A stretch of 64,000 nucleotides of DNA from Trypanosoma brucei (Eukaryota), in assembly GCA_000002445.1 (NCBI GenBank), contig CM000207.1, positions 832,001 through 896,000 on the forward strand. The letters are read 5' to 3'. Below the pieces are notes generated by a model, which was not told the DNA's origin, searched no databases, and saw only the letters and a program-made list of their open reading frames with translations. Positions 4,929 through 51,017 of this stretch are shown here, piece after piece (the stretch's first letter is position 1; the number at the start of each line of letters is the position of its first letter). Position numbers and translations under genes: made by a program.

Positions 4929-7900
4929 GTGGTTCGTCTCGGTAGGTATTTTGGGTGTGAGATGTCCGATCTCCTTGAGTTCTTTGTCCCAGCCTATGCC
5001 CGTGACTTGGAAAATATTGAAAAAGTTGGCGTGACTCAGTATCACATCAGTGAACCGTGTGATTTTGACGTCCCTCCACGGCAGCAGCTCGATGATCTTA
5101 CACGTCTTTTTGACAGTCTTCACAGGGAGAAGTCACCGACAGCTCTTTTTTCCAAACCGGAGCTGTTCGCAGCCCTTTTCACGTATATAAAGGCCATGGA
5201 GGACAAGGAAACAAGTTTTGCTGTCACGAGAGGTGCAAGACACAAAATATGTCATGAATCTGCCGAACGATTGAAGAAACTTCTCCAAATATGCGTGACA
5301 TATCTGAGGAGGAACGCCGAAAATGGTTTTAGAGATTCTCTGCTTTTGTGTTTGCGTTCAAATATTAAAATGTACGTTTTTGTTCTTTGCAATACCTTGC
5401 TGTCCACGGCACCGGGTATAGATGACGACGAGGGCATGTCTCCTTCATTCCAGAGGACGGGGCGAAAACGAAAGCGGAATAAGGGTAATCAAGAGGCAGG
5501 AATAGGTGAAGATGACAGTGGAGTCGATCAGGATGGCCGCGAACAGGCCCTTTCTGCACTTATAGATATTTTTTCACAGGACATTTTACAACTATGGACA
5601 GGGGAACTCATAGAAGAATCTATGCTGACTCTCATGCTGCGGATGCTACTTCACATGATCACCCAAAAGTGCAATATTCATGCCGATGTACAATCCGTGT
5701 CTGGTGCGCTTGTGGTTCTTCTTTCCAAGATATCTGCACAGATGATGGCCAGAGGTTCAATTGAGCCCAATGATTTTGTTTCTCCAATGATCGAACTGGT
5801 GTTGAAGTCTGAAGTAACCGCCCTTTTCTTCACGCGATTCGTCGCTGAAACAGAGAATGAGGGTGCGTCTGCTAATCACGCAGGCCGTGTAGTCACTGCG
5901 CTTATTGAAGGCGTTGCTGGTGTCGCCCTCTACGATGTTGTGGGTGATCCATCCGCTGCGAAAAATGTTGCTTTGTTTTTCAGTGAAGTCGCGAGGAGGT
6001 GCGTGAGCGTAACATCACGTATGTCCGATATTGTGATGCAAACCATTAACAGCGAAAGTTACGAAGTAAGGAAGTCGATCATCACTTGTGTCACTGAAAT
6101 GGTTATTCAGCGTTACAGTGGGCCTAACTGTAACGGCGAAGGTGAGGAGGAGATCCGTGATGGCTATCTCTCCGAGCTGCTGTGTCGCCTCATGGACTGT
6201 AATCCATATGTTCGTAATCACGTTGTGCACATGTGGGAGAAGTTGTTGGAGGCTCGAGCCGTCCCAAAACGCTTCCGCTTACCGCTAACGGGCGCTATTG
6301 TCGGCAGACTAGAAGACAGAAACTACCTTGTGAGGGACTCTGCCCTTCAGGTCGTCGTATCGATATTAAACAAGAGCTGGTTCGGCAGTGTATTGAGTCC
6401 ATCGTTGCTAGAAGAGAAGATTCGTGAGGCGACGGCTGCGGCCGAGGTTCTTTTTGAGTCCGTGGAAATGTATGTGAGGTGTCTAGAGGGCGTGAGAAAG
6501 TCCTCTACGTTTACGGAACCCCAAGCTAGTGGTTTGGCTGAAGAGGCAACGGGAGACGTTCCCGTTCCCATAGAGATGTCAAGCGAGCAAGAGTCTGCGA
6601 TTGATCGGGTTATCTCTTTTGAAGCATCAATGGAGTTCGCTAAATTGATAGCAAAATCACTAACGCATGCTACGTCCCTGCTGGATAGCCGAACTGAGCG
6701 AGATGCTATCGAGGCTATAAAGCTTGTGGTTGCCTGTAACCGACACCGGATCGATGAGGCTGAAAAAGCCTTTCTTCACGTACTGGTAATGGTTTACGAA
6801 GGGGAAATCAAGATTCAGTACGCTGTGCGAGACGCCCTCGTAGATGTTGTTTTCAACGCGTTTTCAAGGTCAACGACATCGTTAGCGGTGCAGAACACCG
6901 CCAGTGCTCATAAGTTGATTAGCTTTCTTCGCGGTGCAAAGGAGGGTGACATCAGCGCTGTTGATAGAGTATTCGCTCTCATTAGAACGAACCCTCCCCA
7001 CTGGCGACTCATTTCAGGCCACTTCATAGACGCTCTGTGGGGGATCGCAGGCGGTGCACTCGATGGCGGTGCCACTCTCGTTGAAAGGCGAATAGCTATG
7101 CGCCTTTTCAGCATTGTCTGCAAGCATGATTGGCACGCACTGGTATCCAGAAAAGAAAGCGTTGTGGAGTTTTTGAAGTCGGGCACTATGAAGGACAACG
7201 TTGTTTTGGCGTACTGCTTGAAGAGTCTCGAGGTTGAAGGTCAGGATCCACACTATCAGCCTATATCGTCCAAATTTGCGCCGGGTGAGCATGTAATTCT
7301 TGAGCAATTGGTTTTTCACTTGTGCAGAACCACAACTACGTTGTCTTCATGGCTAATCGTGGCCGATGCAGCTATTAGCGCTGTTCATCGCCTATGCGAA
7401 GTTCCCGCAGTTGTTTATATCTATGTATTGGAGTATCTCGCACAAAGAGTTGACGCTGATGTTAATACTCAGGCTCAGCTTTTTTTTGTATTGGGGCGTA
7501 CAGCGCTGAAACAGCTCGTTGCGGTTGATTGCCTAGAACGCCAGCATCTGAAAAGGGTCGATGTCGAAGCTATGGCTAAGAAGCCAGCAACGGAGCAGTC
7601 GGTTGTGGGTGATGCTGACGCTATGCACAAGGAATTGGGTTTGGGCTCTCACGAGTACAGAAGGCACGCGATCCAGGAACTAGCTCAACGCCGTAAGCAG
7701 GCTATCATGTCTGAGGGTTCAATCTGGCACCGTCTCTCCAAAGATGTTGTTGATGTCTGTCGGAAAAAGGCATCGCGGTCTGTGGGTAACCCACTAGAGA
7801 GGGTCTGCGCCGTCATGACTATGTCTGAGCTCATGATTGTGAGTGACCAGTTCTGTGAGCAGCATCTAGATCTTCTCTTCACCATCGTTTCCGACAAACG

Positions 7901-8738
7901 AGAATCGTGGGTTGTAAAGACGAACGCAGTCATTGCGTTGGGGGATCTGGCCTGCGTACACCCGAATCTTCTTTCTCCATATCTCAAGGTGCCAACAACG
8001 GGGTTCTTCAAACTTCTTAACGATGCTGATGTCAGAGTCCGTGCGGTAACGATTCAGGTGTGTTCCCACCTTGTTCTCGGGGAAATGCTCCGAATTCGAG
8101 ATCACCTTTATATCATAGTGAGGCTTGTGGCTGATCCTAATGAAACAATTGCTAGCAACGCGGTAACGTTCGTGCAGAACCTGGCGTTGAAGGAAAAAGA
8201 GAGGACGGGGAACCTAATTCCTCCTCTTGTTGTTCAACTAAGCCACGTCGTACCAGCTGATAAGTTTCAGCTGGCGATGCGGTCGCTTCTTGAGCGCGTT
8301 GAGGGCGATAAACCGACAGAATCACTAATAGAACGTTTGTGTCAACGGTTTGAACCATATTCGGAGCGCGGAACCAAAAAGCGGCAAATTGCACGCAATC
8401 TGGCTTTTTGCCTTCACGAGCTCACTTATGCAACTGAAAGGACTATCAAACGGATCACCTCGGAGGTCTGCTATCAACAGTATAAGCAATGGTTGCGGGA
8501 TGACGTCGTACTGGACTATTTTAAGGATATCGCCGCCAAGGCTAAAAAGGTTGGGCTTCGAATTGGAACAGAACGTCGTGATAAAGCGGCTATTGAGGAA
8601 TGGGAGGCTCGGATGCAGGCTGATTGCTGCGGACTGGATGACCCCAGAGGCAGTAGGCAGCTCACTGGTGACGAGTCTAGAGAAGCTGGAGACCAGAATG
8701 AACGCGACAACTGGGACACTACGGCTGACGGCTTGTAA
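4929..8738 (+). CDS. Condensin complex subunit 1 (CAP-D2/Cnd1-like), a HEAT-repeat protein. The true start may be the downstream Met at 4962 (MSDLLEFF).
   Basis: 1269-aa ORF. The C-terminal block NAVIALGDLACVHPNLLSPYL...DADVRVRAVTIQVCSHLVLGEMLRIRDHLYIIVRLVADPNETIASNAV closely matches the conserved Cnd1 C-terminal domain of CAP-D2 (human ...SNLIVALGDLSIRFPNLVEPWT...). The rest reads as HEAT-like helical repeats. Confidence 0.75.
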   Translation: MVRLGRYFGCEMSDLLEFFVPAYARDLENIEKVGVTQYHISEPCDFDVPPRQQLDDLTRLFDSLHREKSPTALFSKPELFAALFTYIKAMEDKETSFAVTRGARHKICHESAERLKKLLQICVTYLRRNAENGFRDSLLLCLRSNIKMYVFVLCNTLLSTAPGIDDDEGMSPSFQRTGRKRKRNKGNQEAGIGEDDSGVDQDGREQALSALIDIFSQDILQLWTGELIEESMLTLMLRMLLHMITQKCNIHADVQSVSGALVVLLSKISAQMMARGSIEPNDFVSPMIELVLKSEVTALFFTRFVAETENEGASANHAGRVVTALIEGVAGVALYDVVGDPSAAKNVALFFSEVARRCVSVTSRMSDIVMQTINSESYEVRKSIITCVTEMVIQRYSGPNCNGEGEEEIRDGYLSELLCRLMDCNPYVRNHVVHMWEKLLEARAVPKRFRLPLTGAIVGRLEDRNYLVRDSALQVVVSILNKSWFGSVLSPSLLEEKIREATAAAEVLFESVEMYVRCLEGVRKSSTFTEPQASGLAEEATGDVPVPIEMSSEQESAIDRVISFEASMEFAKLIAKSLTHATSLLDSRTERDAIEAIKLVVACNRHRIDEAEKAFLHVLVMVYEGEIKIQYAVRDALVDVVFNAFSRSTTSLAVQNTASAHKLISFLRGAKEGDISAVDRVFALIRTNPPHWRLISGHFIDALWGIAGGALDGGATLVERRIAMRLFSIVCKHDWHALVSRKESVVEFLKSGTMKDNVVLAYCLKSLEVEGQDPHYQPISSKFAPGEHVILEQLVFHLCRTTTTLSSWLIVADAAISAVHRLCEVPAVVYIYVLEYLAQRVDADVNTQAQLFFVLGRTALKQLVAVDCLERQHLKRVDVEAMAKKPATEQSVVGDADAMHKELGLGSHEYRRHAIQELAQRRKQAIMSEGSIWHRLSKDVVDVCRKKASRSVGNPLERVCAVMTMSELMIVSDQFCEQHLDLLFTIVSDKRESWVVKTNAVIALGDLACVHPNLLSPYLKVPTTGFFKLLNDADVRVRAVTIQVCSHLVLGEMLRIRDHLYIIVRLVADPNETIASNAVTFVQNLALKEKERTGNLIPPLVVQLSHVVPADKFQLAMRSLLERVEGDKPTESLIERLCQRFEPYSERGTKKRQIARNLAFCLHELTYATERTIKRITSEVCYQQYKQWLRDDVVLDYFKDIAAKAKKVGLRIGTERRDKAAIEEWEARMQADCCGLDDPRGSRQLTGDESREAGDQNERDNWDTTADGL

Positions 8739-9215
8739 CGGAATTATGCGACTTCACACGAGGTGCAGTTTCTTGTGCGAGTATCACGGAATTGTCATTC
8801 ACCAAGAAAAATGGTAGTTATATAGAAGAGTGCCAACGGCATAAAACTTTTTTTCTTTTCGGCCCATGGGGGTTATGTTTAGTGTTTTTTTCTTGCTTGG
8901 TACAGTTGATTGCCGGGAATCAAATGCGCGAAGGACACTCCCGTGGGGGCACTTCACATTTAGAAGGAAAAGCTTATGCGGCTACATTTTTGTATGCAGT
9001 TTGGACGAGGTGTCGTATAGCGCATGTGCCTTCCGGATGCTTTGAATAGGTCTTGAATGCCGTGTGCTTTTTTGTGCCTCCGTATTCTTCACATCTATTG
9101 CACCGATATGTAAATTGGCCGTGTTCCCAGGGGTTCTTTTGAGGTCCCCACCTTTCCTTTTCTTTATTCTTATTGTGCTTTAACCAGTTTCGATCGCGGG
9201 GAGGGTACCGGACTT

Positions 9216-10430
9216 GTGTCTGAACTGCAGCGGTGGGGCGCTCGTTCGCTGCCGTCGGTCATTGTCTGGGGAGACATGTCAGCGTCCCGGATGGTGCCGG
9301 CCGATTTTGAGCTCGGATCAGCTCTTGGTGCGGGATCCTTCAGTAAGGTGGTGACAGCCAGCCACGTACCAACCGGACGGCGCTATGCGATCAAGGTGGT
9401 TTCAAAGCAACAGATCTGTACCGCTCCCTCCGATGAAGAAAAGAGGCGTATGGCAGAAGTGGCCATAAGAGAGGCCCGCATGCTTCGTATGTGCAGCCAC
9501 CCCAACATTGTCCGGTTCCACGCCTCAATGCAAGGTCCGCAGGACCTTATGTACGTAACGGAACTTTGTGACGGGGGGGAGCTACTCGAAGCTATCAAAG
9601 CGTGGGGAACAATACCCCTTGAGGCTGCACGCCACGTCCTCGCCGAGCTTTTTTCGGCTATATGGTATTTGCATCATGCACCGAAACACACACAGCCCGG
9701 AGTTCCTGATGCCCCCCTTGAGTCAATAACAATATTACATAGAGATATAAAACCCGAAAATATTATGCTGATGAGCGATAGGCACGTCAGGCTCATTGAC
9801 TTCGGTACGGCGGTGGTGTGTCGGTCGGTTGACGAACGGCCGGAAGGTGAACACAGTAGCAAAGGAAGGGCGAAGACATTTTGTGGTACAGCACCTTACA
9901 TGTCACCTGAATTGTTACGGAACAACTACACTTGCACTGCTTCTGATTACTGGGCCTGTGGTTGCGTGTTATACCACATGCTGGTGGGCAAGCGTCCTTT
10001 TGATGGATCAACGGAGTACTTTCTTATACAGAGTATCCTCGAAAAGGAACCCGAGTATCCCGAGGACTTAGACGACGACGCGAAGGATTTGATACACAGG
10101 TTGCTGTCAAAATCACCGGATGAACGACCCGGTCGTGAAGAGGTGCAAAATCATCCATTTTTTGTGAGTATTGATTTTGATGGTCTCGCAACGAAGGAAG
10201 TGGCCCCTTTTTGGGTGAGGAACGTTGAGTGGGAGCCCAATTCCCTATTTAGCACCTGCGTAGTCTGTAGAAGGGCGTTCTTCCTCTGGAGGCGTCGCCG
10301 CCACTGTCATAATTGTGGGAAGTTGGTTTGTAGTTCCTGCTCCGCGAATCATATTACCATACCTGGTTGTTCCAGCGCCTCCCCTGAGAGGGTTTGTGAT
10401 TCTTGCTTTGGCAAGATTAGGGGGGATTGA
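9216..10430 (+). CDS. PDK1-like AGC protein kinase with a C-terminal FYVE-like zinc finger
   Basis: Kinase motifs LGAGSFSKV, YAIKV, HRDIKPENIML, DFGTA, GTAPYMSPELL, EYFLIQSIL and HPFF line up with human PDK1 (LGEGSFSTVV, YAIKIL, HRDLKPENIL, DFGTAK, GTAQYVSPELL, EYLIFQKII, HPFF). The C-terminus CVVCRRAFFLWRRRRHCHNCGKLVCSSCS...RVCDSCF carries the FYVE R(R/K)HHCRxCG and RVC signatures where PDK1 has a PH domain. Confidence 0.8.
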   Translation: MSELQRWGARSLPSVIVWGDMSASRMVPADFELGSALGAGSFSKVVTASHVPTGRRYAIKVVSKQQICTAPSDEEKRRMAEVAIREARMLRMCSHPNIVRFHASMQGPQDLMYVTELCDGGELLEAIKAWGTIPLEAARHVLAELFSAIWYLHHAPKHTQPGVPDAPLESITILHRDIKPENIMLMSDRHVRLIDFGTAVVCRSVDERPEGEHSSKGRAKTFCGTAPYMSPELLRNNYTCTASDYWACGCVLYHMLVGKRPFDGSTEYFLIQSILEKEPEYPEDLDDDAKDLIHRLLSKSPDERPGREEVQNHPFFVSIDFDGLATKEVAPFWVRNVEWEPNSLFSTCVVCRRAFFLWRRRRHCHNCGKLVCSSCSANHITIPGCSSASPERVCDSCFGKIRGD

Positions 10431-10668
10431 GCGGAAGCAGGAGGTCGCGTTTAACGTTTCGGAAGTTTCTTTATTAACTGTGTCGTTAGCAATAGTATTC
10501 ACGGAACGCAGCAAATAGGTGTTCACTCACTCACCCCTCTCCACTGACTCCCTCATTGGGTTATGTTATGCTTACACACGCATGCACATCTATAAAGTTG
10601 TGTAGATACATTCACGCATGCTCCGTGCACCTATATTTTTCTTGTTTGTAAACTGCAGAGCAGATACC

Positions 10669-13197: not shown

Positions 13198-14295
13198 ATG
13201 AGGCGGAGCAGGGTACCCGCAGATGGCGTGAGCCACATTCTCGGTAAACGGGCCGTAGCGCTGCTCGTTCCCGTTTTAATAACACTGATGCTAGTGACAT
13301 GGTCTGTACTTAACCTGTCAAGTCTCATTGGGGAACGGCAAAATTCCCTTGTCATCGTTGAACCGTACGGAAACGAGTCAAGTTCGCTGCAGGTATTTGA
13401 GGCGTCTGTTATTAATGCTCTGGCAGTTGTTGCGCTTATTGTGGTCTTCACGTTCATTATGTTGGCGTTGTACAAGTTTGGGTTCGAAATAGTTCTCTAC
13501 GTGTGGCTGGGTGTGTCTGTGGGGTCAATCCTCTTTATCACGATGTGGGTTTTTTTGGATTTGGTACTTACCCGATTTCAAATACCGTATGATTTCATTA
13601 CAATGTTTCTGGTTCTGTGGAACACGGGTGTAGTTGGCCTGGTATCAATCTTTTATTATTCGCATCCGACGGTTGCGCAGGTGTACCTTATTGCCATATC
13701 GGTTATCGTTGCTTGGTCTGCTACGTCCCTGCCCGCCTGGACCACTTGGTGCTTGCTCGTAGCGGTTGCGATATATGATGTAGTCGCCGTGTTATGTCCG
13801 TACGGACCGCTTCGTATGCTCGTGGAGGCTGCTGATGAGCGCAACCGACCCATTCCAGCCCTTGTTTACGACAGTGACGCCCGGATTATTGTTGCAACTT
13901 CTTTCCCTGGAGAGGATGCGCAGATGGTTGAGATTGCGGCCAGGGCCCGAAAGCAAGAGGGAGGCAGGCAGCGACCCCGGAAGCGGCCCCCGTCTCCCCT
14001 GGACTCGCTTCTTGGCGACACTCCCTTTAAATTGGGGCTTGGCGATTTCATCTTCTACAGTTTGTTGTGTGGAATTGCTGCGAGCTACTCATTTATTCCG
14101 TGGTTGATGTCGGTGATTGCCGTCTTATTCGGCCTAGTTGGTACGTTGCTTTTCTTGGTGCTTTTCAAGGAAAAGTTGACGGCTCTTCCGGCACTTCCTA
14201 TATCGATAGCTCTGGGGGTGATCACCTACTTTTCATCCCGCTACTTGGTTGTGCCACTGGACTGGTTTGCGACTCTCTCTGTGCTTGCACTGTAG
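13198..14295 (+). CDS. Presenilin-like intramembrane aspartyl protease (peptidase family A22)
   Basis: Multi-pass membrane protein carrying AIYDVVAVLCPYGPLRMLVE (the TM6 YD motif; human PS1 has YDLVAVLCPKGPLRMLVE), GLGDFIFYSLL (the TM7 GxGD motif) and PALPISIALG (the PAL motif). Confidence 0.85.
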   Translation: MRRSRVPADGVSHILGKRAVALLVPVLITLMLVTWSVLNLSSLIGERQNSLVIVEPYGNESSSLQVFEASVINALAVVALIVVFTFIMLALYKFGFEIVLYVWLGVSVGSILFITMWVFLDLVLTRFQIPYDFITMFLVLWNTGVVGLVSIFYYSHPTVAQVYLIAISVIVAWSATSLPAWTTWCLLVAVAIYDVVAVLCPYGPLRMLVEAADERNRPIPALVYDSDARIIVATSFPGEDAQMVEIAARARKQEGGRQRPRKRPPSPLDSLLGDTPFKLGLGDFIFYSLLCGIAASYSFIPWLMSVIAVLFGLVGTLLFLVLFKEKLTALPALPISIALGVITYFSSRYLVVPLDWFATLSVLAL

Positions 14296-20340: not shown

Positions 20341-20555
20341 TTATGAGGTGTAGAAGCAGATTGTGACGGTGCGACATTTCAATGTATTCTATGACAGTAT
20401 AGCCTTTTCACTTGTTTGTAACTGCTGAATTCTTTAAACTCTCGGCATTTGTTACCTTTTCTCCCCGAGCATCGGCAGCATAACCTTTTGTTTTGCCTAG
20501 AGGACATCTCACTCTCTTAGCATAGTACTCATTGTGCACAGTTGGACACTACGTC

Positions 20556-23348
20556 ATGTTCATGAACAAGCCCTTTGGCAGCAAGCGCTGCGAACCCTTC
20601 CACGAGTCGGAGCACCTTTGTGAGGCGTTTGCCATCACTGAAGCAATCCTCGCTCGCTATCAGCGTGGGAAACGCAGCTTTACGTCCTCCGAAAAAAGTG
20701 GACTGGCAGCCCTTATCAAACGTATTCCTTATGATATCCTTGTTGAGGTTCTCGATCAAAGCGGATTTACTCCAACAAGCAATGCAACACCCCCCGTTGA
20801 TTATTTAGCTATGATGGAGCACACAATGACGCACGGTGCGTCTATTACACACGCCCTGCAGTACCTTAACGATTTGATGACTAAGTGTACCGGGTGCCCG
20901 GGGATTCGTACATATTACCATAACCCCAATGATGACGTTCTGGCCGACCCCGTTCACGACACGGCAGCATTGATTGATGAAACAACAGCCGTGGGAAAGT
21001 CGGTTGTAACTAAACAGTACCTTAATATAGCTGGGGCTCACTACATACCCTTGATCCACGGAGATATTGTGGTTGGTTGTGTTGAGGTACCCCGCTTTTC
21101 GGGAAATCTTGAGGAGTTGCCATCATTCCCATCTCTCATAAGAGCTGTGACATGCACCGCACACAAATTCATTGAGGAAGCGAGAATCAACTGGAACAGG
21201 GAGAAGGCGGAAGCTATGTTGCAAATGGCGACCAGGTTGGCCCGTGACAATCTTGATGAAACAGTACTTGCATCTTCTATCATGAACACTGTCAAGAGTC
21301 TCACGGAAAGTGCACGTTGCAGTCTCTTCCTTGTGAAAGACGACAAGCTTGAAGCGCATTTTGAGGATGGTAACGTCGTTTCCATACCCAAGGGAACAGG
21401 CATTGTAGGGTATGTGGCGCAAACTGGTGAGACTGTTAATATTGTTGATGCCTACGCCGATGACCGCTTTAACCGTGAGGTTGACAAGGCTACTGGGTAC
21501 CGTACAAAGACGATACTCTGCATGCCTGTGATGTACGAAGGAACGATTGTGGCTGTAACCCAGCTGATTAATAAATTGGATCTGACAACTGAGAGTGGAT
21601 TGCGCCTACCTCGTGTGTTCGGAAAACGTGACGAGGAGCTGTTCCAAACCTTCTCTATGTTTGCTGGCGCCTCACTACGTAACTGTCGTATCAATGACCG
21701 ACTCTTAAAGGAGAAGAAAAAGAGTGACGTGATTCTCGATGTTGTTACTGTTCTCTCGAACACGGATATCCGCGATGTGGATGGTATTGTTCGCCACGCA
21801 CTGCACGGAGCAAAGAAACTACTGAACGCGGATCGCTCTACTTTGTTTTTGGTGGACAAGGAACGGAACGAACTTTGCAGTCGTATGGCAGATAGCGTTG
21901 CTGGTAAGGAGATTCGTTTTCCGTGTGGCCAAGGTATTGCGGGCACTGTGGCGGCATCTGGAGTTGGTGAGAATATTCAGGACGCGTACCAGGATCCGCG
22001 TTTCAACCGTGAGGTTGACAAACAACTTGGATACCGCACGCAGACCATATTGTGCGAGCCCATCATACTAAATGGTGAGATCCTTGCTGTCGTGCAGCTC
22101 GTGAACAAGCTTGATACGTCTGGAGAAGTGACTGTGTTTACCGAGGATGATCGTGAGACCTTCCGTGTGTTTTCCTTATTTGCAGGTATATCCATCAACA
22201 ACTCTCACCTGCTTGAGTTCGCTGTGAAAGCGGGTCGTGAGGTGATGGAATTAAATGAACACCGAGCAACATTGTTTAATAAGAACGTTCCCTCACGTGC
22301 GGTTAAACGAGTCACTGCCATTACGAAGGTTGAAAGGGAAGCGGTCTTGGTCTGTGAACTTCCATCGTTTGACGTTACGGATGTTGAGTTCGACTTGTTC
22401 CGAGCGCGTGATACTACGGATAAACCGTTGGATGTTGCTGCTGCTATTGCATACAGACTACTGCTTGGAAGCGGCCTTCCACAAAAGTTTGGTTGCTCTG
22501 ACGAGGTGCTTCTTAACTTCATTCTGCAATGCCGTAAGAAATACCGTAATGTCCCTTATCACAACTTTTACCATGTTGTGGATGTATGCCAAACCATTCA
22601 CACATTCTTGTACAGGGGAAATGTGTATGAGAAGTTAACCGAGCTTGAGTGCTTTGTGCTGCTTATCACCGCACTGGTGCATGATCTTGATCATATGGGG
22701 CTGAACAACAGTTTCTACCTGAAAACAGAATCTCCACTTGGTATTCTTTCCAGCGCAAGTGGTAACACCTCTGTTCTTGAGGTGCATCACTGCAACCTTG
22801 CTGTTGAGATCCTCTCTGATCCGGAATCTGATGTGTTTGGTGGTCTGGAGGGTGCAGAGCGTACTCTTGCGTTCCGATCGATGATTGATTGTGTACTTGC
22901 GACAGATATGGCGAAGCATGGAAGTGCATTAGAGGCGTTTCTTGCATCTGCGGCGGACCAGTCGTCAGACGAGGCGGCGTTTCACCGCATGACGATGGAG
23001 ATACTCTTGAAAGCTGGAGATATCTCTAACGTAACGAAACCGTTCGACATTTCCCGTCAGTGGGCAATGGCTGTGACGGAGGAGTTCTACCGTCAAGGAG
23101 ACATGGAGAAGGAGAGGGGTGTGGAAGTATTGCCCATGTTTGACCGATCTAAGAATATGGAGCTTGCAAAAGGTCAAATTGGATTCATTGACTTTGTCGC
23201 AGCCCCATTTTTCCAGAAGATAGTTGATGCCTGCCTGCAAGGGATGCAATGGACAGTCGACCGTATCAAATCGAACCGCGCACAGTGGGAGCGAGTTCTG
23301 GAAACAAGACTATCAACGAGTTCTGGCAACAACAGCAGTACTCGTTGA
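20556..23348 (+). CDS. PDEB1: cAMP-specific phosphodiesterase with tandem GAF-A and GAF-B domains and a class I PDE catalytic domain (PDEB1)
   Basis: Starting at MFMNKPFGS gives 930 aa, matching TbrPDEB1. Two GAF domains are present (GIVGYVAQTGETVNIVDAYADDRFN and GIAGTVAASGVGENIQDAYQDPRFN). The catalytic domain carries the PDE metal-binding signature YHNFYHVVDVCQ...LLITALVHDLDHMGLNN. It is the upstream copy of a tandem pair. Confidence 0.9.
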   Translation: MFMNKPFGSKRCEPFHESEHLCEAFAITEAILARYQRGKRSFTSSEKSGLAALIKRIPYDILVEVLDQSGFTPTSNATPPVDYLAMMEHTMTHGASITHALQYLNDLMTKCTGCPGIRTYYHNPNDDVLADPVHDTAALIDETTAVGKSVVTKQYLNIAGAHYIPLIHGDIVVGCVEVPRFSGNLEELPSFPSLIRAVTCTAHKFIEEARINWNREKAEAMLQMATRLARDNLDETVLASSIMNTVKSLTESARCSLFLVKDDKLEAHFEDGNVVSIPKGTGIVGYVAQTGETVNIVDAYADDRFNREVDKATGYRTKTILCMPVMYEGTIVAVTQLINKLDLTTESGLRLPRVFGKRDEELFQTFSMFAGASLRNCRINDRLLKEKKKSDVILDVVTVLSNTDIRDVDGIVRHALHGAKKLLNADRSTLFLVDKERNELCSRMADSVAGKEIRFPCGQGIAGTVAASGVGENIQDAYQDPRFNREVDKQLGYRTQTILCEPIILNGEILAVVQLVNKLDTSGEVTVFTEDDRETFRVFSLFAGISINNSHLLEFAVKAGREVMELNEHRATLFNKNVPSRAVKRVTAITKVEREAVLVCELPSFDVTDVEFDLFRARDTTDKPLDVAAAIAYRLLLGSGLPQKFGCSDEVLLNFILQCRKKYRNVPYHNFYHVVDVCQTIHTFLYRGNVYEKLTELECFVLLITALVHDLDHMGLNNSFYLKTESPLGILSSASGNTSVLEVHHCNLAVEILSDPESDVFGGLEGAERTLAFRSMIDCVLATDMAKHGSALEAFLASAADQSSDEAAFHRMTMEILLKAGDISNVTKPFDISRQWAMAVTEEFYRQGDMEKERGVEVLPMFDRSKNMELAKGQIGFIDFVAAPFFQKIVDACLQGMQWTVDRIKSNRAQWERVLETRLSTSSGNNSSTR
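21240..23300 (+). repeat. Tandem-duplicated segment, copy 1 (PDEB1, GAF-B to catalytic domain). It is nearly identical at the DNA level to 26411-28471.
   Basis: Long runs of identical nucleotides shared with copy 2 at a constant offset of 5171 nt. Identity is broken by short divergent patches at about 22300-22420 and 22900-22990 and at the 3' end. The same antisense ORFs appear in both copies as a by-product. Confidence 0.9.
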
Positions 23349-25726: not shown

Positions 25727-28504
25727 ATGACACACAACGGTGGTCGTCATCTGCTTGAGGCGGTTACGCTATGCGGGTCCATTCTTACCCGCTATAAGCG
25801 GAGCAACATGAAGCTCGACGAAGCTGAGGTAAGGGCATTAAAGGAGTTATTCGAGAAGTATCAAGATATCCTCGTGGATGGATCCCCTGGTTTGCCCACC
25901 CACGCTAGCGGGCCCATGATCCAGCCTCCCGTTACAAACATGGTCGCCCCTTATGATTCCCCCACGGATACTATAGTGAAGTTCGTTGAAGGAACGATAA
26001 ACCTGCAGAGACCAATTGTTGAGGTCCTTCACGTTATGAACGAGCATTTGTCCCTTGTCCTTCGCGCAAAGAACACTCATGTCTTTTATGTCGACCCCGT
26101 TAATAACCTGTTATACGACCCTATTCACGGGGTGGCCGCTGCACTCGATGAATCGTCACCAATAGGAAAGGCCATAGTTTCGGGTGAGCGGCTTAACGTA
26201 GCGGGGACACTATATATACCCATCATCTCCGAGGGGATGCCGTTGGGTTGCGTACTGAGTCCTTGTGGAAGGGCAGATTACCACGCCTCTACGATGCTTG
26301 AGTCATCACTCCGTGTTATTTCCACATCCCTCAAAAACATCATTCAGGCAGAGAAACTAAACTGGAACAAAGAAAAGGCGGAGGCTATGCTCCGGATGGC
26401 AACGCAGCTGGCCCGTGACAATCTTGAAGAAACAGTACTCGCATCTTCTATCATGAACACTGTCAAGAGTCTCACGGAAAGTGCGCGTTGCAGTCTCTTC
26501 CTTGTCAGGGGTGACGTTCTTGAAGCGCATTTTGAGGATGGTAACGTTGTTACAATCCCTAGGGGTGCAGGTATTGCCGGATATGTGGCGCAAACTGGTG
26601 AGACTGTTAATATTGTTGATGCCTACGCCGATGACCGCTTTAACCGTGAGGTTGACAAGGCTACTGGGTACCGTACAAAGACGATACTCTGCATGCCTGT
26701 GATGTACGAAGGAACGATTGTGGCTGTTGCCCAACTGATTAATAAATTGGATCTGACAACTGAGAGTGGATTGCGCCTACCTCGTGTGTTCGGAAGGCGT
26801 GATGAGGAGCTGTTCCAAACCTTCTCTATGTTTGCTGGCGCCTCACTACGTAACTGTCGTATCAACGACCGACTCTTAAAGGAGAAGAAAAAGAGTGACG
26901 TGATTCTCGATGTTGTTACTGTTCTCTCGAACACGGATATCCGCGATGTGGATGGTATTGTTCGCCACGCACTGCACGGAGCAAAGAAACTACTGAACGC
27001 GGATCGCTCTACTTTGTTTTTGGTGGACAAGGAACGGAACGAACTTTGCAGTCGTATGGCAGATAGCGTTGCTGGTAAGGAGATTCGTTTTCCGTGTGGC
27101 CAAGGTATTGCGGGCACTGTGGCGGCATCTGGAGTTGGTGAGAATATTCAGGACGCGTACCAGGATCCGCGTTTCAACCGTGAGGTTGACAAACAACTTG
27201 GATACCGCACGCAGGCCATATTGTGCGAGCCCATCATACTAAATGGTGAGATCCTTGCTGTCGTGCAGCTCGTGAACAAGCTTGATTCATCTGGAGAAGT
27301 GACTGTGTTTACCGAGGATGATCGTGACACCTTCCGTGTGTTTTCCTTATTTGCAGGTATATCCATCAACAACTCTCACCTGCTTGAGTTCGCTGTGAAG
27401 GCGGGTCGTGAGGTGATGGAATTAAATGAACACCGAGCAACATTGTTTAATAAGAACGTTCCCTCACGTGGAGTTAAACGAGTCACTGCCATCACAAATA
27501 GAGAAAGGGAGGCTGTGCTACGTATTGAGTTCCCCAACGTGGACGTTACGGATATTGACTTCGACTTGTTCCAGGCACGTGAAAGTACAGATAAACCGTT
27601 GGATGTTGCTGCTGCTATTGCATACAGACTACTGCTTGGAAGCGGCCTTCCACAAAAGTTTGGTTGCTCTGACGAGGTGCTTCTTAACTTCATTCTGCAA
27701 TGCCGTAAGAAATACCGTAATGTCCCTTATCACAACTTTTACCATGTTGTGGATGTATGCCAAACCATTTACACATTCTTGTACAGGGGAAATGTGTATG
27801 AGAAGTTAACCGAGCTTGAGTGCTTTGTGCTGCTTATCACCGCACTGGTGCATGATCTTGATCATATGGGGCTGAACAACAGTTTCTACCTGAAAACAGA
27901 ATCTCCACTTGGTATTCTTTCCAGCGCAAGTGGTAACAAGTCTGTTCTTGAGGTGCATCACTGCAACCTTGCTGTTGAGATCCTCTCTGATCCGGAATCT
28001 GATGTGTTTGGTGGTCTGGAGGGTGCAGAGCGTACTCTTGCGTTCCGATCGATGATTGATTGTGTACTTGCGACAGATATGGCGAGACATAGTGAATTTC
28101 TTGAGAAGTACCTAGAGCTTATGAAAACATCTTACAACGTTGATGATTCCGATCATCGGCAAATGACAATGGATGTGCTTATGAAAGCTGGAGATATCTC
28201 TAACGTAACGAAACCGTTCGACATTTCCCGTCAGTGGGCAATGGCTGTGACGGAGGAGTTCTACCGTCAAGGAGACATGGAAAAGGAGAGGGGTGTGGAA
28301 GTATTGCCCATGTTTGACCGATCTAAGAATATGGAGCTTGCAAAAGGTCAAATTGGATTCATTGACTTTGTCGCAGCCCCATTTTTCCAGAAGATAGTTG
28401 ATGCCTGCCTGCAAGGGATGCAATGGACAGTCGACCGTACAAAGTCGAACCGCGCACAGTGGGAGCGAGTTCTGGAAGCAAGGAGTACAGGGGCTTCGTC
28501 TTAG
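25727..28504 (+). CDS. PDEB2: cAMP-specific phosphodiesterase with tandem GAF domains and a PDE catalytic domain (PDEB2), the downstream tandem paralogue
   Basis: 925 aa, matching TbrPDEB2. The N-terminal GAF-A region differs from the upstream copy. From about residue 210 onward the nucleotide sequence is nearly identical to PDEB1 apart from short mosaic patches. It carries the same YHNFYHVVDVCQ...HDLDHMG catalytic signature. Confidence 0.9.
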   Translation: MTHNGGRHLLEAVTLCGSILTRYKRSNMKLDEAEVRALKELFEKYQDILVDGSPGLPTHASGPMIQPPVTNMVAPYDSPTDTIVKFVEGTINLQRPIVEVLHVMNEHLSLVLRAKNTHVFYVDPVNNLLYDPIHGVAAALDESSPIGKAIVSGERLNVAGTLYIPIISEGMPLGCVLSPCGRADYHASTMLESSLRVISTSLKNIIQAEKLNWNKEKAEAMLRMATQLARDNLEETVLASSIMNTVKSLTESARCSLFLVRGDVLEAHFEDGNVVTIPRGAGIAGYVAQTGETVNIVDAYADDRFNREVDKATGYRTKTILCMPVMYEGTIVAVAQLINKLDLTTESGLRLPRVFGRRDEELFQTFSMFAGASLRNCRINDRLLKEKKKSDVILDVVTVLSNTDIRDVDGIVRHALHGAKKLLNADRSTLFLVDKERNELCSRMADSVAGKEIRFPCGQGIAGTVAASGVGENIQDAYQDPRFNREVDKQLGYRTQAILCEPIILNGEILAVVQLVNKLDSSGEVTVFTEDDRDTFRVFSLFAGISINNSHLLEFAVKAGREVMELNEHRATLFNKNVPSRGVKRVTAITNREREAVLRIEFPNVDVTDIDFDLFQARESTDKPLDVAAAIAYRLLLGSGLPQKFGCSDEVLLNFILQCRKKYRNVPYHNFYHVVDVCQTIYTFLYRGNVYEKLTELECFVLLITALVHDLDHMGLNNSFYLKTESPLGILSSASGNKSVLEVHHCNLAVEILSDPESDVFGGLEGAERTLAFRSMIDCVLATDMARHSEFLEKYLELMKTSYNVDDSDHRQMTMDVLMKAGDISNVTKPFDISRQWAMAVTEEFYRQGDMEKERGVEVLPMFDRSKNMELAKGQIGFIDFVAAPFFQKIVDACLQGMQWTVDRTKSNRAQWERVLEARSTGASS
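26411..28471 (+). repeat. Tandem-duplicated segment, copy 2 (PDEB2)
   Basis: See copy 1. Matching blocks include 26411-27470 against 21240-22299 and 27590-28070 against 22419-22899. Confidence 0.9.
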
Positions 28505-33331: not shown

Positions 33332-33853
33332 ACACGCTGGGCGTCGGTGACACGAGATATAATTCCGGTGGGTGGCGCCATTATGTGTGTGTGCGTGCGG
33401 TCGCTCTTTTATTTTCTTTCACCACTATTGTTATGGTTACCGTCATGATTTCTATTATTATTTTTTTAAAAAATCCGTTTGTTATTTTTATTTACACCTC
33501 TTTTACTGGTATGCTCATTTTACCATATTGCATTCGTGCCACGAAAAGCCAGCATTATGAGTTTTTTGCTTGGTTCTTTTATATTTGTGCACGCGATTAC
33601 GGACGTTTCAGCTCAGTGGAGCTTATTCCGTTTCAATCCCCTTTCTTTTCTCTTCCGTGTGTTTTCTTTATTTCTTTTGGTCTTCACTCTTTGGTACTGT
33701 GGCTTTTGTATTGTAGTTGCGGTGGTCTTGACTGAATAGAATTAACCTGACAGGACAGGCGTCCAAGTGGTGATTAACAACTGCAGAAAGGGAGTAAGTA
33801 AGAGAAGACCGAAAACAAAAGCAAGTGAGACATTCGCTTTCACCCGGTTCAGT

Positions 33854-34732
33854 ATGCTTGAGGCTCAGGTTCTGCACGCTAACTTGTGGAAGCGTCTCAT
33901 TGAATGCATTAACGGTCTTGTTAATGAGGCGAACTTCGATTGTAATCCCGGTGGCCTCTCCATTCAAGCTATGGATACGAGCCACGTTGCCCTCGTGCAC
34001 ATGCTGCTTCGCGATGATTGCTTCACGAAGTACCAGTGTGAGCGCAACAGTGTCCTCGGGCTTAACCTCGCTTCCCTTTCCAAGGTGTTGAAGATTGTGG
34101 AAGCAACTGATAGCCTAACGCTCCGCCACGAAGATGATTCCGACGTTGTCACACTAACATCGGAGAATGGAGAGAGGTCTCGCAAGTGTGAGTATCAACT
34201 CAAATTGCTGGAGATTGAGACTGAGGCTATGGGTATTCCTGAGATGGATTACAAATCCATTGTGACCCTAAGTTCCCAGGAATTTGCCAAAATCGTCCGC
34301 GACATGACCGTTTTTGGTGATACTGTCAACATTGAGATTCTCAAGGAGAGCGTTAAGTTCAGTTCGTGTGGCGATGTGGGCGAAGGTTACGCGTTGCTGC
34401 GGGCGAGCCATGCCCCAACAGTTGACCCCCGATCAAAAGGTGAGTCGGATGTCAAAACAGAAGATGAAGAGGCTGACGCTTGCAGTGTCCGCACTCATTC
34501 AGCAAAAGGGAAGGATGGGCCACTGGGTATTGGTGTTGATGTCCGCACTAATGAGCCTATCACGCTGTCATTCGCCCTGCGATTCATGAACATATTCGCA
34601 AAAGGGGCAACACTTAGTGACCGCGTGTCGCTCAAGTTCGCCAAGGAGAGTCCTTGTATGGTGGAGTACAGCATTGATCAAGTTGGGTATCTCCGTTACT
34701 ATCTTGCTCCAAAGGTGGACGACGCCGAGTAA
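33854..34732 (+). CDS. PCNA: Proliferating cell nuclear antigen (PCNA), the DNA sliding clamp
   Basis: MLEAQVLHANLWKRLIECINGLVNEANFDCNPGGLSIQAMDTSHVALVHMLL matches human PCNA [52 protein letters not shown]. The C-terminal LRYYLAPKVDD matches human LKYYLAPKIED. About 292 aa from the MLEAQ start. Confidence 0.9.
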   Translation: MLEAQVLHANLWKRLIECINGLVNEANFDCNPGGLSIQAMDTSHVALVHMLLRDDCFTKYQCERNSVLGLNLASLSKVLKIVEATDSLTLRHEDDSDVVTLTSENGERSRKCEYQLKLLEIETEAMGIPEMDYKSIVTLSSQEFAKIVRDMTVFGDTVNIEILKESVKFSSCGDVGEGYALLRASHAPTVDPRSKGESDVKTEDEEADACSVRTHSAKGKDGPLGIGVDVRTNEPITLSFALRFMNIFAKGATLSDRVSLKFAKESPCMVEYSIDQVGYLRYYLAPKVDDAE

Positions 34733-50638: not shown

Positions 50639-51017
50639 AGGAGTTAGGTGGGTGGATGTGCTCGTCCGCACATTAACTCTACCTTGCCAGGTACCATCTC
50701 AGCTCACCATACGTTTCTTATATTGGTTCATACATTCATTATTTTTGTTTCTACTACTGGGTTGAATACGAGTTGTAATATTACTTCCCAGTGTGTACTT
50801 CTTGCGTACATGTGCCTGTTTCGGGCTTTGCATGTGTTTTTTATTGGCGTACTGGTTCTGCCCTATGTAAACAGTGAGTCAGCTGTTGTGTCCGCTCTCA
50901 CTGGGCTGTGTTCATAGTATCATATAGAAAAGGAAAAGGATAGCAGAGTGAAGTGGAGTGGAGTGGTTAAAAAAAAAAAATCGGCGGCCAGCTAACACAT
51001 TAGGATTGCGTGCCGGC

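What the first reader, a model, noticed from the sequence alone, without database searches (positions are those of the whole stretch)
9216..10430. PDK1-like kinase in which the PH domain is replaced by a FYVE-type finger
The catalytic domain follows PDK1 motif by motif, including the PDK1-specific GTAxYxSPELL and EY(F/L)I(F/Q) blocks. The C-terminal lipid-binding module has the FYVE signatures RRRHCHNCG and RVCDSCF, not a PH domain. FYVE domains bind PI3P whereas the PDK1 PH domain binds PI(3,4,5)P3. Kinetoplastids are thought to have only a Vps34-type PI3-kinase and no class I enzyme. A domain swap from PIP3 reader to PI3P reader would therefore be a coherent rewiring of the PI3K-PDK1-AGC axis. 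The FYVE is non-canonical because its N-terminal WxxD motif is not obvious, so lipid specificity is uncertain.
Basis: partly seen in the sequence, partly recalled or inferred. Interest (0 to 1): 0.55.

Follow-up and report, generated by a model that had tools for sequence, protein, structure and literature searches.

The report
Known trypanosome PDK1-like kinase with FYVE
This is the already annotated Trypanosoma brucei gene Tb927.9.4910 ("TbPDK1"), a PDK1-type kinase that ends in a FYVE zinc finger rather than a PH domain. That architecture was published in 2005 and 2023, and here it turns out to be shared by all euglenozoans, with the lipid-binding residues partly eroded in T. brucei.

Summary
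It has a catalytically intact kinase domain whose closest solved relatives, by sequence and by fold, are human PDK1. The C-terminal zinc finger is a FYVE domain by Pfam, by sequence search against PDB and by predicted fold. It is not a RING, PHD or B-box finger.

It is not new. The gene is Tb927.9.4910 / Q38F57, named TbPDK1. The FYVE domain was tabulated in the 2005 trypanosomatid kinome paper, and the FYVE-versus-PH discrepancy was discussed explicitly in 2023. RNAi gives slow growth, and the activation-loop Thr201 is phosphorylated in vivo.

The proposed rationale (no class I PI3K, hence a switch to a PI3P reader) is weak:
- Published phylogenomics gives kinetoplastids a second, class I/II-like PI3K.
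- PIP3 has a reported function in T. brucei.
- The PDK1-FYVE architecture also occurs in euglenids and diplonemids.
- The PI3P-binding signature is canonical in most of these lineages, altered at three positions in T. brucei (WEPN, RRRHCH), and largely lost in Leishmania-type species.

Verdict: real, ordinary, already known. Lipid specificity and true PDK1 function remain untested.

Novelty: the gene and its FYVE-for-PH peculiarity are already published (PMC1266030, PMC3894213, PMC10720658).

The parts
9276..10430 (+). Coding sequence of Tb927.9.4910 (TbPDK1), 384 aa plus a TGA stop.
   Evidence: ORF. The product is identical to XP_803794.1 / Q38F57. Published RNAi primers for Tb927.9.4910 match 9534-9553 (+) and 9943-9962 (-). 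Synteny also fits: presenilin Tb927.9.4940 is three genes downstream and PCNA Tb927.9.5190 lies at 33767-34732.
9309..10163 (+). Protein kinase domain (residues 12-296) of PDK1 type. The catalytic signature is complete: K40, E66, HRD 155-157, N162, DFG 175-177, SPE 210-212. The Gly loop reads GAGSFS, as in PDK1 (GEGSFS).
   Evidence: Pfam Pkinase 202 bits. PDB phmmer top hit is human PDK1, 4e-49. Foldseek top 34 hits are PDK1. Invariant columns.
9423..9443 (+). Seven-residue insertion (A50-K56, APSDEEK) between helices alpha-B and alpha-C, next to the PIF-pocket region. It is found in the trypanosomatid and Trypanoplasma sequences aligned; two unidentified kinetoplastid-clade relatives carry a one-residue-shorter version.
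   Evidence: Gap in the alignment to human PDK1. Absent or shorter in P0045, P0047, Diplonema and P0049. The AF2 model shows a long helix at 53-72.
9681..9728 (+). Sixteen-residue insertion (P136-I151) between helix alpha-E and the catalytic loop, specific to kinetoplastids.
   Evidence: Gap against human PDK1. Absent from P0045, P0047, Diplonema and P0049. Block pLDDT 86-93.
9876..9878 (+). Codon for Thr201, the activation-loop phospho-acceptor equivalent to PDK1 Ser241.
   Evidence: RAKTFCGTAPY aligns with RANSFVGTAQY. The position is T or S in every row of alignment A2. Phospho-T201 was detected in vivo (supplement of PMC6907760).
10164..10226 (+). Linker (residues 297-317) between the kinase and FYVE domains, with a nearly invariant Trp313. 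There is no AGC C-terminal tail and no hydrophobic motif.
   Evidence: No Pkinase_C hit. W313 is nearly invariant. pLDDT 84-95.
10227..10418 (+). FYVE zinc finger (residues 318-381) with eight zinc-ligand cysteines: C328, C331, C344, C347, C352, C355, C374, C377.
   Evidence: Pfam PF01363, 62-63 bits. All 15 PDB sequence hits are FYVE domains. Foldseek top 13 hits are FYVE domains, EEA1 at rmsd 1.7 A. The cysteines are conserved in all complete orthologues.
10230..10241 (+). WEPN at the WxxD position. The Asp that contacts the inositol ring in canonical FYVE domains is Asn here.
   Evidence: Alignment to EEA1 WAED. The position is WxxD in T. vivax, Trypanoplasma, and the diplonemids and euglenids; T. 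cruzi (WVDD) also fits.
10293..10310 (+). Basic motif R340-R-R-H-C-H345 in place of the canonical R(R/K)HHCR. The first His is Arg and the Arg after the Cys is His. It is preceded by a hydrophobic FFLW loop.
   Evidence: Alignment to EEA1 RRHHCR. T. brucei is the only Trypanosoma with this variant.
10389..10397 (+). RVC motif (R372-V-C374), retained.
9149..9187 (+). Polypyrimidine tract followed by the first AG. This is a likely trans-splice acceptor about 90 nt upstream of the ATG (inferred only).
   Evidence: Read directly from the sequence. No experimental support was looked up.

Best explanation
The feature is the known T. brucei gene Tb927.9.4910 (TbPDK1). It encodes a catalytically competent AGC kinase of the PDK1 lineage with a C-terminal FYVE zinc finger where animal, fungal, plant, ciliate and oomycete PDK1s carry a PH domain.

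Shown:
- The gene identity.
- An intact catalytic signature.
- No hydrophobic-motif tail, as in PDK1.
- In vivo phosphorylation of the activation-loop Thr201, the equivalent of PDK1 Ser241.
- A FYVE fold with all eight zinc ligands.
- A PDK1-FYVE architecture that is ancestral to Euglenozoa.

Inferred: the ancestral protein was recruited by its canonical FYVE domain to PI3P on endosomal membranes (the product of Vps34). There it phosphorylated the activation loops of other AGC kinases. This parallels the way mammalian PDK1 meets PX-domain SGK3 on PI3P endosomes.

In T. brucei three signature positions have changed (D to N in WxxD; H to R and R to H in RRHHCR). The membrane-insertion loop (FFLW), the arginine cluster and RVC remain. 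I therefore expect weakened or broadened acidic-lipid binding rather than textbook PI3P specificity. I put about 50% on PI3P still being the main ligand in T. brucei.

The PIF pocket is only partly conserved: K115, I118, Q150 and L155 are kept, V124 and V127 are Ala, and the phosphate-binding R131 is lost. Docking on phosphorylated hydrophobic motifs is plausible but not assured.
For: Identity: an exact protein match to Q38F57, RNAi primer matches, synteny with Tb927.9.4940 and Tb927.9.5190, and phosphopeptide windows.

PDK1 lineage:
- Human PDK1 scores 170 bits in the PDB sequence search, against 137 bits for AKT2, the best hit that is not a PDK1-type kinase.
- The top 34 Foldseek hits are all human PDK1.
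- After other FYVE kinases, the FYVE kinase P0047 hits almost only PDK1s, most carrying the PH_3 domain (E about 1e-76 to 1e-82).
- P0047 and the Diplonema protein are 51% and 46% identical to the human PDK1 kinase domain.

FYVE.

Pan-euglenozoan spread and motif states.

PIF-pocket mapping.

Literature: slow growth on RNAi (PMC3894213) and annotation as PDK1 with FYVE (PMC10720658).
Against: - The neighbour-joining tree places the FYVE kinases with PDK1s, but bootstrap support is only 12-29%.
- Jensen and Parsons report that human PDK1's best T. brucei match is PKA. They also note that the mild RNAi phenotype is not what a master AGC activator should give.
- Three PI3P-contact positions are non-canonical in T. 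brucei, and the signature is largely lost in Leishmania-type orthologues.
- R131 of the phosphate pocket is absent.
- No lipid-binding, localisation or substrate data were found.
Confidence: 0.55

Rival explanations
1. In T. brucei the FYVE finger no longer reads PI3P. As in the Leishmania-type orthologues, it would be a FYVE-related zinc module kept for another purpose: intramolecular regulation of the kinase, dimerisation, or binding a protein partner. The kinase would then be soluble or targeted by other means.
For: WEPN and RRRHCH replace WxxD and RRHHCR. Leishmania, Leptomonas, Phytomonas and Strigomonas orthologues keep all eight cysteines but have lost most basic-motif residues, for example RSKRFCH and RKDYCR. 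So the fold is under selection independently of the PI3P signature. The AF2 full-length model gives a confident linker and FYVE domain and pTM 0.86, which is compatible with a fixed interdomain arrangement. In Phytophthora PsZFPK1 the FYVE domain did not affect localisation (PMC10381902).
Against: The T. brucei changes conserve charge (H to R) or keep a titratable base (R to H). RVC, the arginine cluster and a hydrophobic insertion loop remain. The close relatives T. congolense, T. vivax and T. cruzi keep the canonical RRHHCR. The interdomain contact could not be inspected because no coordinates were available.
Confidence: 0.35
2. One reading: kinetoplastids lack class I PI3K and PIP3, so PDK1 adaptively swapped its PIP3-reading PH domain for a PI3P-reading FYVE domain. 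That would rewire the PI3K-PDK1-AGC axis onto Vps34.
For: No PH domain is present, and a FYVE domain occupies the same C-terminal position. A review table of characterised T. brucei phosphoinositide enzymes lists TbVps34 (Tb927.8.6210) as its only PI3K. Canonical PI3P signatures occur in most euglenozoan orthologues.
Against: Kinetoplastids are reported to have a second PI3K intermediate between class I and II (PMC3024228), and class I enzymes are listed for T. cruzi and Leishmania. PIP3 has a described nuclear function in T. brucei. The architecture is shared with free-living euglenids and diplonemids, so it predates kinetoplastids. The PI3P signature is eroded in T. brucei itself and largely lost in Leishmania-type species. 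T. brucei retains a PH-bearing AKT-like AGC kinase (PH listed on AGC kinases in Table 2 of PMC1266030; RAC Tb927.6.2250).
Confidence: 0.1
3. The protein is PDK1-like in sequence only. Functionally it would be an ordinary AGC kinase with its own substrates, and trypanosome AGC kinases would autophosphorylate or use another upstream kinase. This rival is not exclusive of the explanations above about the FYVE domain.
For: RNAi gives only slow growth with no cell-cycle defect, and RIT-seq shows no loss of fitness (PMC3894213). Reciprocal similarity fails according to PMC10720658. PIF-pocket residues V124 and V127 are Ala and R131 is lost. Bootstrap support for the PDK1 clade is weak.
Against: There is a clear score gap to all non-PDK1 kinases in sequence and in fold. 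The less divergent euglenozoan members link it to canonical PH-bearing PDK1s. It shares PDK1 hallmarks: no hydrophobic motif, a GxGSFS loop, SPELL, a phosphorylated activation-loop Thr, and K115 and L155 retained. The extent of the RNAi knock-down was not verified.
Confidence: 0.3

Closest known systems
Human PDK1 (PDPK1) and its PH_3-bearing orthologues in animals, fungi, plants, ciliates and oomycetes
   Same: The kinase domain is 34-40% identical and is the best match by sequence and by fold. The Gly loop is GxGSFS. The activation loop reads xFxGTAxYxSPELL with a phosphorylated Ser/Thr. There is no C-terminal hydrophobic motif. K115, I118, Q150 and L155 of the PIF pocket are retained. A lipid-binding-type module follows the kinase domain.
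   Different: The C-terminal module is a FYVE zinc finger, not the PH domain (PF14593). There are kinetoplastid-specific insertions of 7 and 16 residues. V124 and V127 are Ala and R131 is lost. The protein is much shorter (384 against 556 aa), with no long linker.
Euglenozoan PDK1-FYVE kinases (T. cruzi, T. vivax, Trypanoplasma borreli, Papus, Diplonema papillatum 'PDK1', Euglena longa, Ploeotia, Entosiphon)
   Same: These are orthologues or close homologues with the same kinase-FYVE architecture and all eight zinc cysteines.
   Different: They carry the canonical WxxD, R(R/K)HHCR and RVC signature, whereas T. brucei has WEPN and RRRHCH. Euglenid and diplonemid members lack the kinetoplastid insertions and are closer to human PDK1 (46-51% identity).
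Mammalian SGK3 (PX domain plus AGC kinase)
   Same: It is an AGC kinase recruited to PI3P endosomes downstream of Vps34 (PMC4209782 and PMC8318898, abstracts listed). It is a functional analogue of PI3P-gated AGC signalling.
   Different: The lipid reader is an N-terminal PX domain. SGK3 is a PDK1 substrate with a hydrophobic motif, not a PDK1-type kinase.
T. brucei ZFK (Tb927.11.9270) and Phytophthora PsZFPK1
   Same: Both are protist AGC kinases that combine a kinase domain with FYVE or FYVE-related domains. FYVE plus Ser/Thr kinase is described as exclusive to protists (PMC10381902).
   Different: ZFK has PX plus a FYVE-related domain and is a separate AGC gene in the 2005 kinome table (gene 3 against gene 1). 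PsZFPK1 is described as AKT/SGK-like with a T-loop site thought to be a PDK1 target, so it would be a substrate rather than a PDK1 homologue.

Membership tests
PDK1 subfamily of AGC kinases | The kinase domain is closer to PDK1 than to any other kinase subfamily. | tested here: met
   PDB phmmer gives PDK1 170 bits, C. albicans Pkh-like 4c0t 165 bits and the next class (AKT2) 137 bits. The top 34 Foldseek hits are PDK1. The bridging search from P0047 returns PH_3-bearing PDK1s.
PDK1 subfamily of AGC kinases | Monophyly with bona fide PDK1s in a phylogeny, or a reciprocal best hit. | tested here: inconclusive
   The neighbour-joining topology groups the FYVE kinases with PDK1s, but bootstrap support is 12-29%. 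PMC10720658 states that human PDK1's best T. brucei match is PKA; this was not re-tested.
PDK1 subfamily of AGC kinases | No C-terminal AGC tail or hydrophobic motif of its own. | tested here: met
   There is no Pkinase_C hit. A 21-residue linker leads straight into the FYVE domain.
PDK1 subfamily of AGC kinases | An activation-loop Ser/Thr (S241) that is phosphorylated. | tested here: met
   T201 aligns with S241. The position is T or S in every row of alignment A2. Phospho-T201 appears in the published phosphoproteome.
PDK1 subfamily of AGC kinases | PIF pocket (K115, I118, I119, V124, V127, L155) with the adjacent phosphate site (K76, R131, T148, Q150). | tested here: inconclusive
   K44, I47, Q86 and L91 are conserved. 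S84 replaces T148 and R5 replaces K76. C48 replaces I119, and A60 and A63 replace V124 and V127. A67 replaces R131 (T, S or M in other kinetoplastids; R or K in diplonemid-type and canonical PDK1s).
PDK1 subfamily of AGC kinases | A C-terminal PH domain that binds PI(3,4,5)P3 or PI(3,4)P2. | tested here: not met
   No PH family was hit in any of the 20 orthologues scanned. FYVE is present instead.
PDK1 subfamily of AGC kinases | Phosphorylates the activation loops of other AGC kinases. | not testable with these tools
   No substrate data were found. RNAi gives slow growth only.
FYVE zinc finger (Pfam PF01363) | Profile match above the curated threshold. | tested here: met
   63.2 bits against a gathering cut-off of 27.8. 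All 20 orthologues scanned match.
FYVE zinc finger (Pfam PF01363) | Eight cysteines coordinating two zinc ions, and the FYVE fold. | tested here: met
   All eight Cys are conserved. The AF2 model (pLDDT 85) superposes on EEA1, Vps27, Hrs, RUFY1 and endofin at rmsd 1.1-1.9 A. PHD and RING fingers appear only at E > 0.07.
Canonical PI3P-binding FYVE | The N-terminal WxxD motif. | tested here: not met
   It reads WEPN in T. brucei and T. congolense. WxxD is present in T. vivax, Trypanoplasma, diplonemids and euglenids; T. cruzi (WVDD) also fits.
Canonical PI3P-binding FYVE | The R(R/K)HHCR basic motif. | tested here: not met
   It reads R-R-R-H-C-H, with two substitutions relative to EEA1 RRHHCR. 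The motif is canonical in the other Trypanosoma species.
Canonical PI3P-binding FYVE | The RVC motif. | tested here: met
   R372-V-C374.
Canonical PI3P-binding FYVE | Specific binding of PI3P. | not testable with these tools
   This needs liposome or lipid-strip assays and localisation experiments.

The most novel reading that the evidence does not exclude
PDK1-FYVE is the ancestral euglenozoan form of PDK1. It would define an ancient Vps34/PI3P-gated, endosome-based route for activating AGC kinases that stands in for PIP3-PH signalling across a whole eukaryotic phylum. It would have been uncoupled from PI3P secondarily and independently in the T. brucei group (partly) and in the Leishmania, Phytomonas and Strigomonas lineage (largely), with the zinc finger retained for a second role, for example autoregulation.
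Probability: 0.3. Interest if true: 0.5.

Novelty: already known. Interest (0 to 1): 0.2.

Why it matters
PDK1 is the master upstream kinase of AGC signalling in animals and fungi. Whether trypanosomes have a functional equivalent is an open question that Jensen and Parsons raised explicitly in 2023, and TbPDK1 has been modelled as a possible drug target. The gene and its FYVE-for-PH architecture are already annotated, so this finding adds no new entity.

- The architecture is pan-euglenozoan.
- The PI3P-reading residues are canonical in T. cruzi, T. vivax, bodonids, diplonemids and euglenids, altered in T. brucei, and largely lost in Leishmania-type species.

Lipid-binding and localisation tests should therefore compare T. 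cruzi, T. brucei and Leishmania proteins side by side. A result from one species should not be assumed to hold for the others.

Tried and rejected
It was redone with numpy Kimura distances. The topology agrees with PDK1 affiliation, but bootstrap support is too weak to count as proof.
- The look-up of encoding contigs found no record for the exact 384-aa product. Identity was established through the listing of cluster members, primer matches and synteny instead.
- Foldseek against afdb50 was not available, so structural neighbours with organism names could not be surveyed.
- The 2025 PI3K/AKT-in-parasites review (PMC12269711) and the endocytosis commentary (PMC4802737) say nothing useful about trypanosome PI3K classes or TbPDK1.
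- RING, PHD or B-box assignment of the C-terminus was considered and rejected. No such Pfam or PDB sequence hit appears, and PHD and RING structures appear only at Foldseek E > 0.07 with rmsd > 6 A.
- The GTG at 9216 was rejected as the start. The organism is a eukaryote, and the RefSeq protein and phosphosite numbering fit ATG 9276.
- The AF2 coordinates could not be inspected. A possible kinase-FYVE interface, and whether the conserved Trp313 docks on the N-lobe, remain unexamined.
Full report
**What is in the sequence**

An uninterrupted + strand reading frame runs from 9216 to 10430. The window is a trypanosomatid polycistronic unit: all 26 ORFs of 200 aa or more lie on the + strand. The GTG at 9216 is therefore not the start. 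The first ATG is at 9276 and gives a 384-aa protein. That protein is identical to XP_803794.1 / UniProt Q38F57 of Trypanosoma brucei brucei TREU927, on a 3.06-Mb contig.

Pfam finds a protein kinase domain (202 bits) and a FYVE zinc finger (PF01363). The FYVE score is 63.2 bits against a gathering cut-off of 27.8, E 2.4e-17. There is no PH domain and no AGC C-terminal tail.

**Which gene it is**

Four independent lines identify it as Tb927.9.4910, named TbPDK1.
- The exact protein match to Q38F57.
- The phosphoproteome supplement of Benz and Urbaniak (PMC6907760). [quoted passage not shown] Both are exact substrings, and the numbering fits the ATG at 9276.
- The RNAi primers OL3612 and OL3613 that Jones et al. 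used for Tb927.9.4910 match the window once each, at 9534-9553 (+) and 9943-9962 (-).
- Synteny. The presenilin ORF three genes downstream (13198-14295) is Tb927.9.4940 (PMC6027440). The PCNA ORF at 33767-34732 is Tb927.9.5190 (PMC4530879).

**Is the kinase PDK1-like?**

Against all PDB sequences, the 16 best hits are human PDK1 (167-171 bits, E about 4e-49). A Candida PDK1-type kinase and further human PDK1 entries follow (160-165 bits). The first other subfamily is AKT2 at 137 bits.

A full-length AlphaFold2 model built on a 54-sequence alignment is confident (mean pLDDT 90.2, pTM 0.86). Its top 34 Foldseek hits in the PDB are all human PDK1, with target TM-score 0.90-0.91 at 34% identity.

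The catalytic signature is complete. The Gly loop is GAGSFS, as in PDK1 (GEGSFS). The activation loop reads RAKTFCGTAPYMSPELL against PDK1 RANSFVGTAQYVSPELL. There is no hydrophobic motif. Thr201, the equivalent of PDK1 Ser241, is phosphorylated in vivo.

A neighbour-joining tree places the FYVE kinases with human, fungal, oomycete and plant PDK1s, but bootstrap support is only 12-29%. The tree is therefore consistent, not decisive.

Stronger evidence comes from a less divergent relative. P0047 is a Pkinase-FYVE protein of unidentified origin, most similar to euglenid sequences, and 51% identical to the human PDK1 kinase domain. When it is used as the query, the hits after other FYVE kinases are almost all PDK1s, most with the PH_3 domain, from animals and fungi. 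Their E-values are 1e-76 to 1e-82 at 45-47% identity.

I conclude that the kinase belongs to the PDK1 lineage and that the kinetoplastid branch is divergent. It has a 7-residue insertion between alpha-B and alpha-C and a 16-residue insertion before the catalytic loop.

The PIF pocket is only partly conserved.
- Kept: K115, I118, Q150, L155. T148 is Ser and K76 is Arg.
- Changed: I119 is Cys, and V124 and V127 are Ala.
- Lost: the phosphate-binding R131 is Ala. It is T, S or M in other kinetoplastids, but R or K in diplonemid-type and canonical PDK1s.

**Is the zinc finger a FYVE domain?**

Yes. Searching the last 76 residues against PDB sequences returns 15 hits, all FYVE domains: ZFYVE26, EEA1, Vps27, RUFY1, Leishmania LM5-1, Hrs and others.

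**Are the lipid-reading residues intact?**

Only partly. Aligned to EEA1:

| Canonical motif (EEA1) | T. brucei |
|---|---|
| W1348-x-x-D1351 | W-E-P-N |
| R1369-R-H-H-C-R1374 | R-R-R-H-C-H |
| R1399-V-C | R-V-C |

A hydrophobic FFLW loop sits where EEA1 has its membrane-insertion loop. That these EEA1 residues contact the PI3P head group is textbook knowledge recalled from memory. It was not re-derived here.

Across 46 complete orthologues the eight zinc cysteines never vary. The PI3P signature does vary.
- Canonical R(R/K)HHCR and RVC: T. congolense, T. vivax, T. grayi, T. cruzi, T. theileri, Trypanoplasma borreli, Papus, many environmental kinetoplastids, diplonemids and euglenids. Most of these also have WxxD; T. 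congolense has WEPN and T. grayi WVDE.
- Strongly degenerate: Leishmania, Porcisia, Leptomonas, Phytomonas and Strigomonas, for example RSKRFCH and RKDYCR, with RVC often replaced by HVC, NVC or PVC.
- T. brucei is the only Trypanosoma with RRRHCH. Each of its two changes needs a single transition.

**How widespread is the architecture?**

Cluster look-ups give the species for the distant Pkinase-FYVE relatives.
- Euglenids: Ploeotia vitrea, Euglena longa, Entosiphon sulcatum.
- Diplonemids: Diplonema japonicum, D. ambulator and D. papillatum (annotated there as PDK1), Rhynchopus euleeides, and a sequence labelled Hpha that I take to be Hemistasia.
- Kinetoplastids: the prokinetoplastid Papus ankaliazontas, Trypanoplasma, and trypanosomatids.

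PDK1-FYVE is therefore a pan-euglenozoan trait, not a kinetoplastid invention. I found no PDK1-type FYVE kinase outside Euglenozoa in these searches. Two relatives have no taxon label.

**What was already known**

- Parsons et al. 2005 list FYVE on one T. brucei, two T. cruzi and one L. major AGC kinase (Table 2). Their gene 1 (Tb09.160.3480 / LmjF15.1550 / two T. cruzi alleles) fits that count and is syntenic with presenilin, so it is this gene.
- Jones et al. 2014 named it PDK1 and found slow growth without a cell-cycle defect on RNAi.
- Jensen and Parsons 2023 state that it is annotated PDK1 because of kinase similarity and a putative phosphoinositide-binding domain. They note that the FYVE and PH domains are unrelated, that human PDK1's best T. 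brucei match is PKA, and that functional homology "should be revisited".
- A 2025 paper built a homology model of TbPDK1.

The finding is therefore already known.

The premise that kinetoplastids have only Vps34 does not hold in the literature.
- Brown and Auger report a second kinetoplastid PI3K intermediate between class I and II.
- Another survey lists class I enzymes as detected in T. cruzi and Leishmania.
- PIP3 is reported to regulate RAP1 and VSG silencing in T. brucei.
- T. brucei also keeps PH-bearing AGC kinases.

Combined with the pan-euglenozoan distribution and the erosion of the PI3P signature in T. brucei and Leishmania, a "coherent rewiring" driven by loss of class I PI3K is unlikely. 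I put it at about 0.1.

**Most likely mechanism**

The protein is an active PDK1-lineage kinase, and Thr201 is phosphorylated. Its ancestral form was recruited by a canonical FYVE domain to PI3P endosomes, where it could meet AGC substrates.

In T. brucei I expect weaker or less specific acidic-lipid binding. Alternatively the finger may be retained for a non-lipid role, as the Leishmania-type sequences suggest. Whether the protein really activates other AGC kinases is untested, and the mild RNAi phenotype argues for caution.

**Score**

Interest is low (0.2). The entity and its peculiarity are published. The residual value lies in the comparative pattern, which tells experimenters which species to compare.

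Noticed in passing
window 10428-10454: The TGA stop of TbPDK1 is polymorphic within the T. brucei group. TREU927 and one T. equiperdum record end at ...IRGD (384 aa). T. b. gambiense DAL972 and T. b. equiperdum RHW70046 read through to ...IRGDGAEAGGRV (392 aa). That extension matches the window sequence after the stop (gcg gaa gca gga ggt cgc gtt taa).
   Followed up: partly
window 20532-23348 and 25727-28504: Two tandem paralogous GAF-GAF-PDEase_I genes (938 and 925 aa), about 11 kb downstream of TbPDK1. By memory they look like the TbrPDEB1 and TbrPDEB2 cAMP phosphodiesterase drug-target pair. Gene IDs were not checked.
   Followed up: no
window 9336-9338 (Ser21 codon): A published phosphoproteome reports phosphorylation of Ser21 inside the glycine-rich ATP-binding loop (GAGS21FS) of TbPDK1. 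That is a potentially inhibitory site, seen alongside the activating T201 site.
   Followed up: partly
window 1-64000: All ORFs of 200 aa or more are on the + strand, forming a single polycistronic unit. Pfam content: condensin Cnd1 (4929-8738), CorA-like transporter, presenilin (Tb927.9.4940), TYW1-like radical SAM, GINS Sld5, HMG-box protein, GHMP kinase, PCNA (Tb927.9.5190), class I Glu/Gln-tRNA synthetase, MutS homologue, Hrd1/synoviolin-like RING ligase, Nop56/58, DUF1796 peptidase-like, two actin-family genes (50958-52268, 60805-62070), 2OG-Fe(II) oxygenase, and a TBC RabGAP.
   Followed up: partly
P0044 / P0240 (related proteins, not in the window): A kinetoplastid-type PDK1-FYVE sequence is filed in EukProt under Colpodella angusta and Colponema vietnamica transcriptomes. 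It groups with bodonid-like sequences. It is probably contamination from bodonid prey rather than an alveolate gene.
   Followed up: no
P0140 (ENA, 1.8-Mb contig; related protein): This diplonemid-like PDK1-FYVE gene prediction has an insertion of about 45 residues inside the FYVE domain, between the third and fourth zinc-ligand pairs. It looks like an unspliced intron in the gene model.
   Followed up: no
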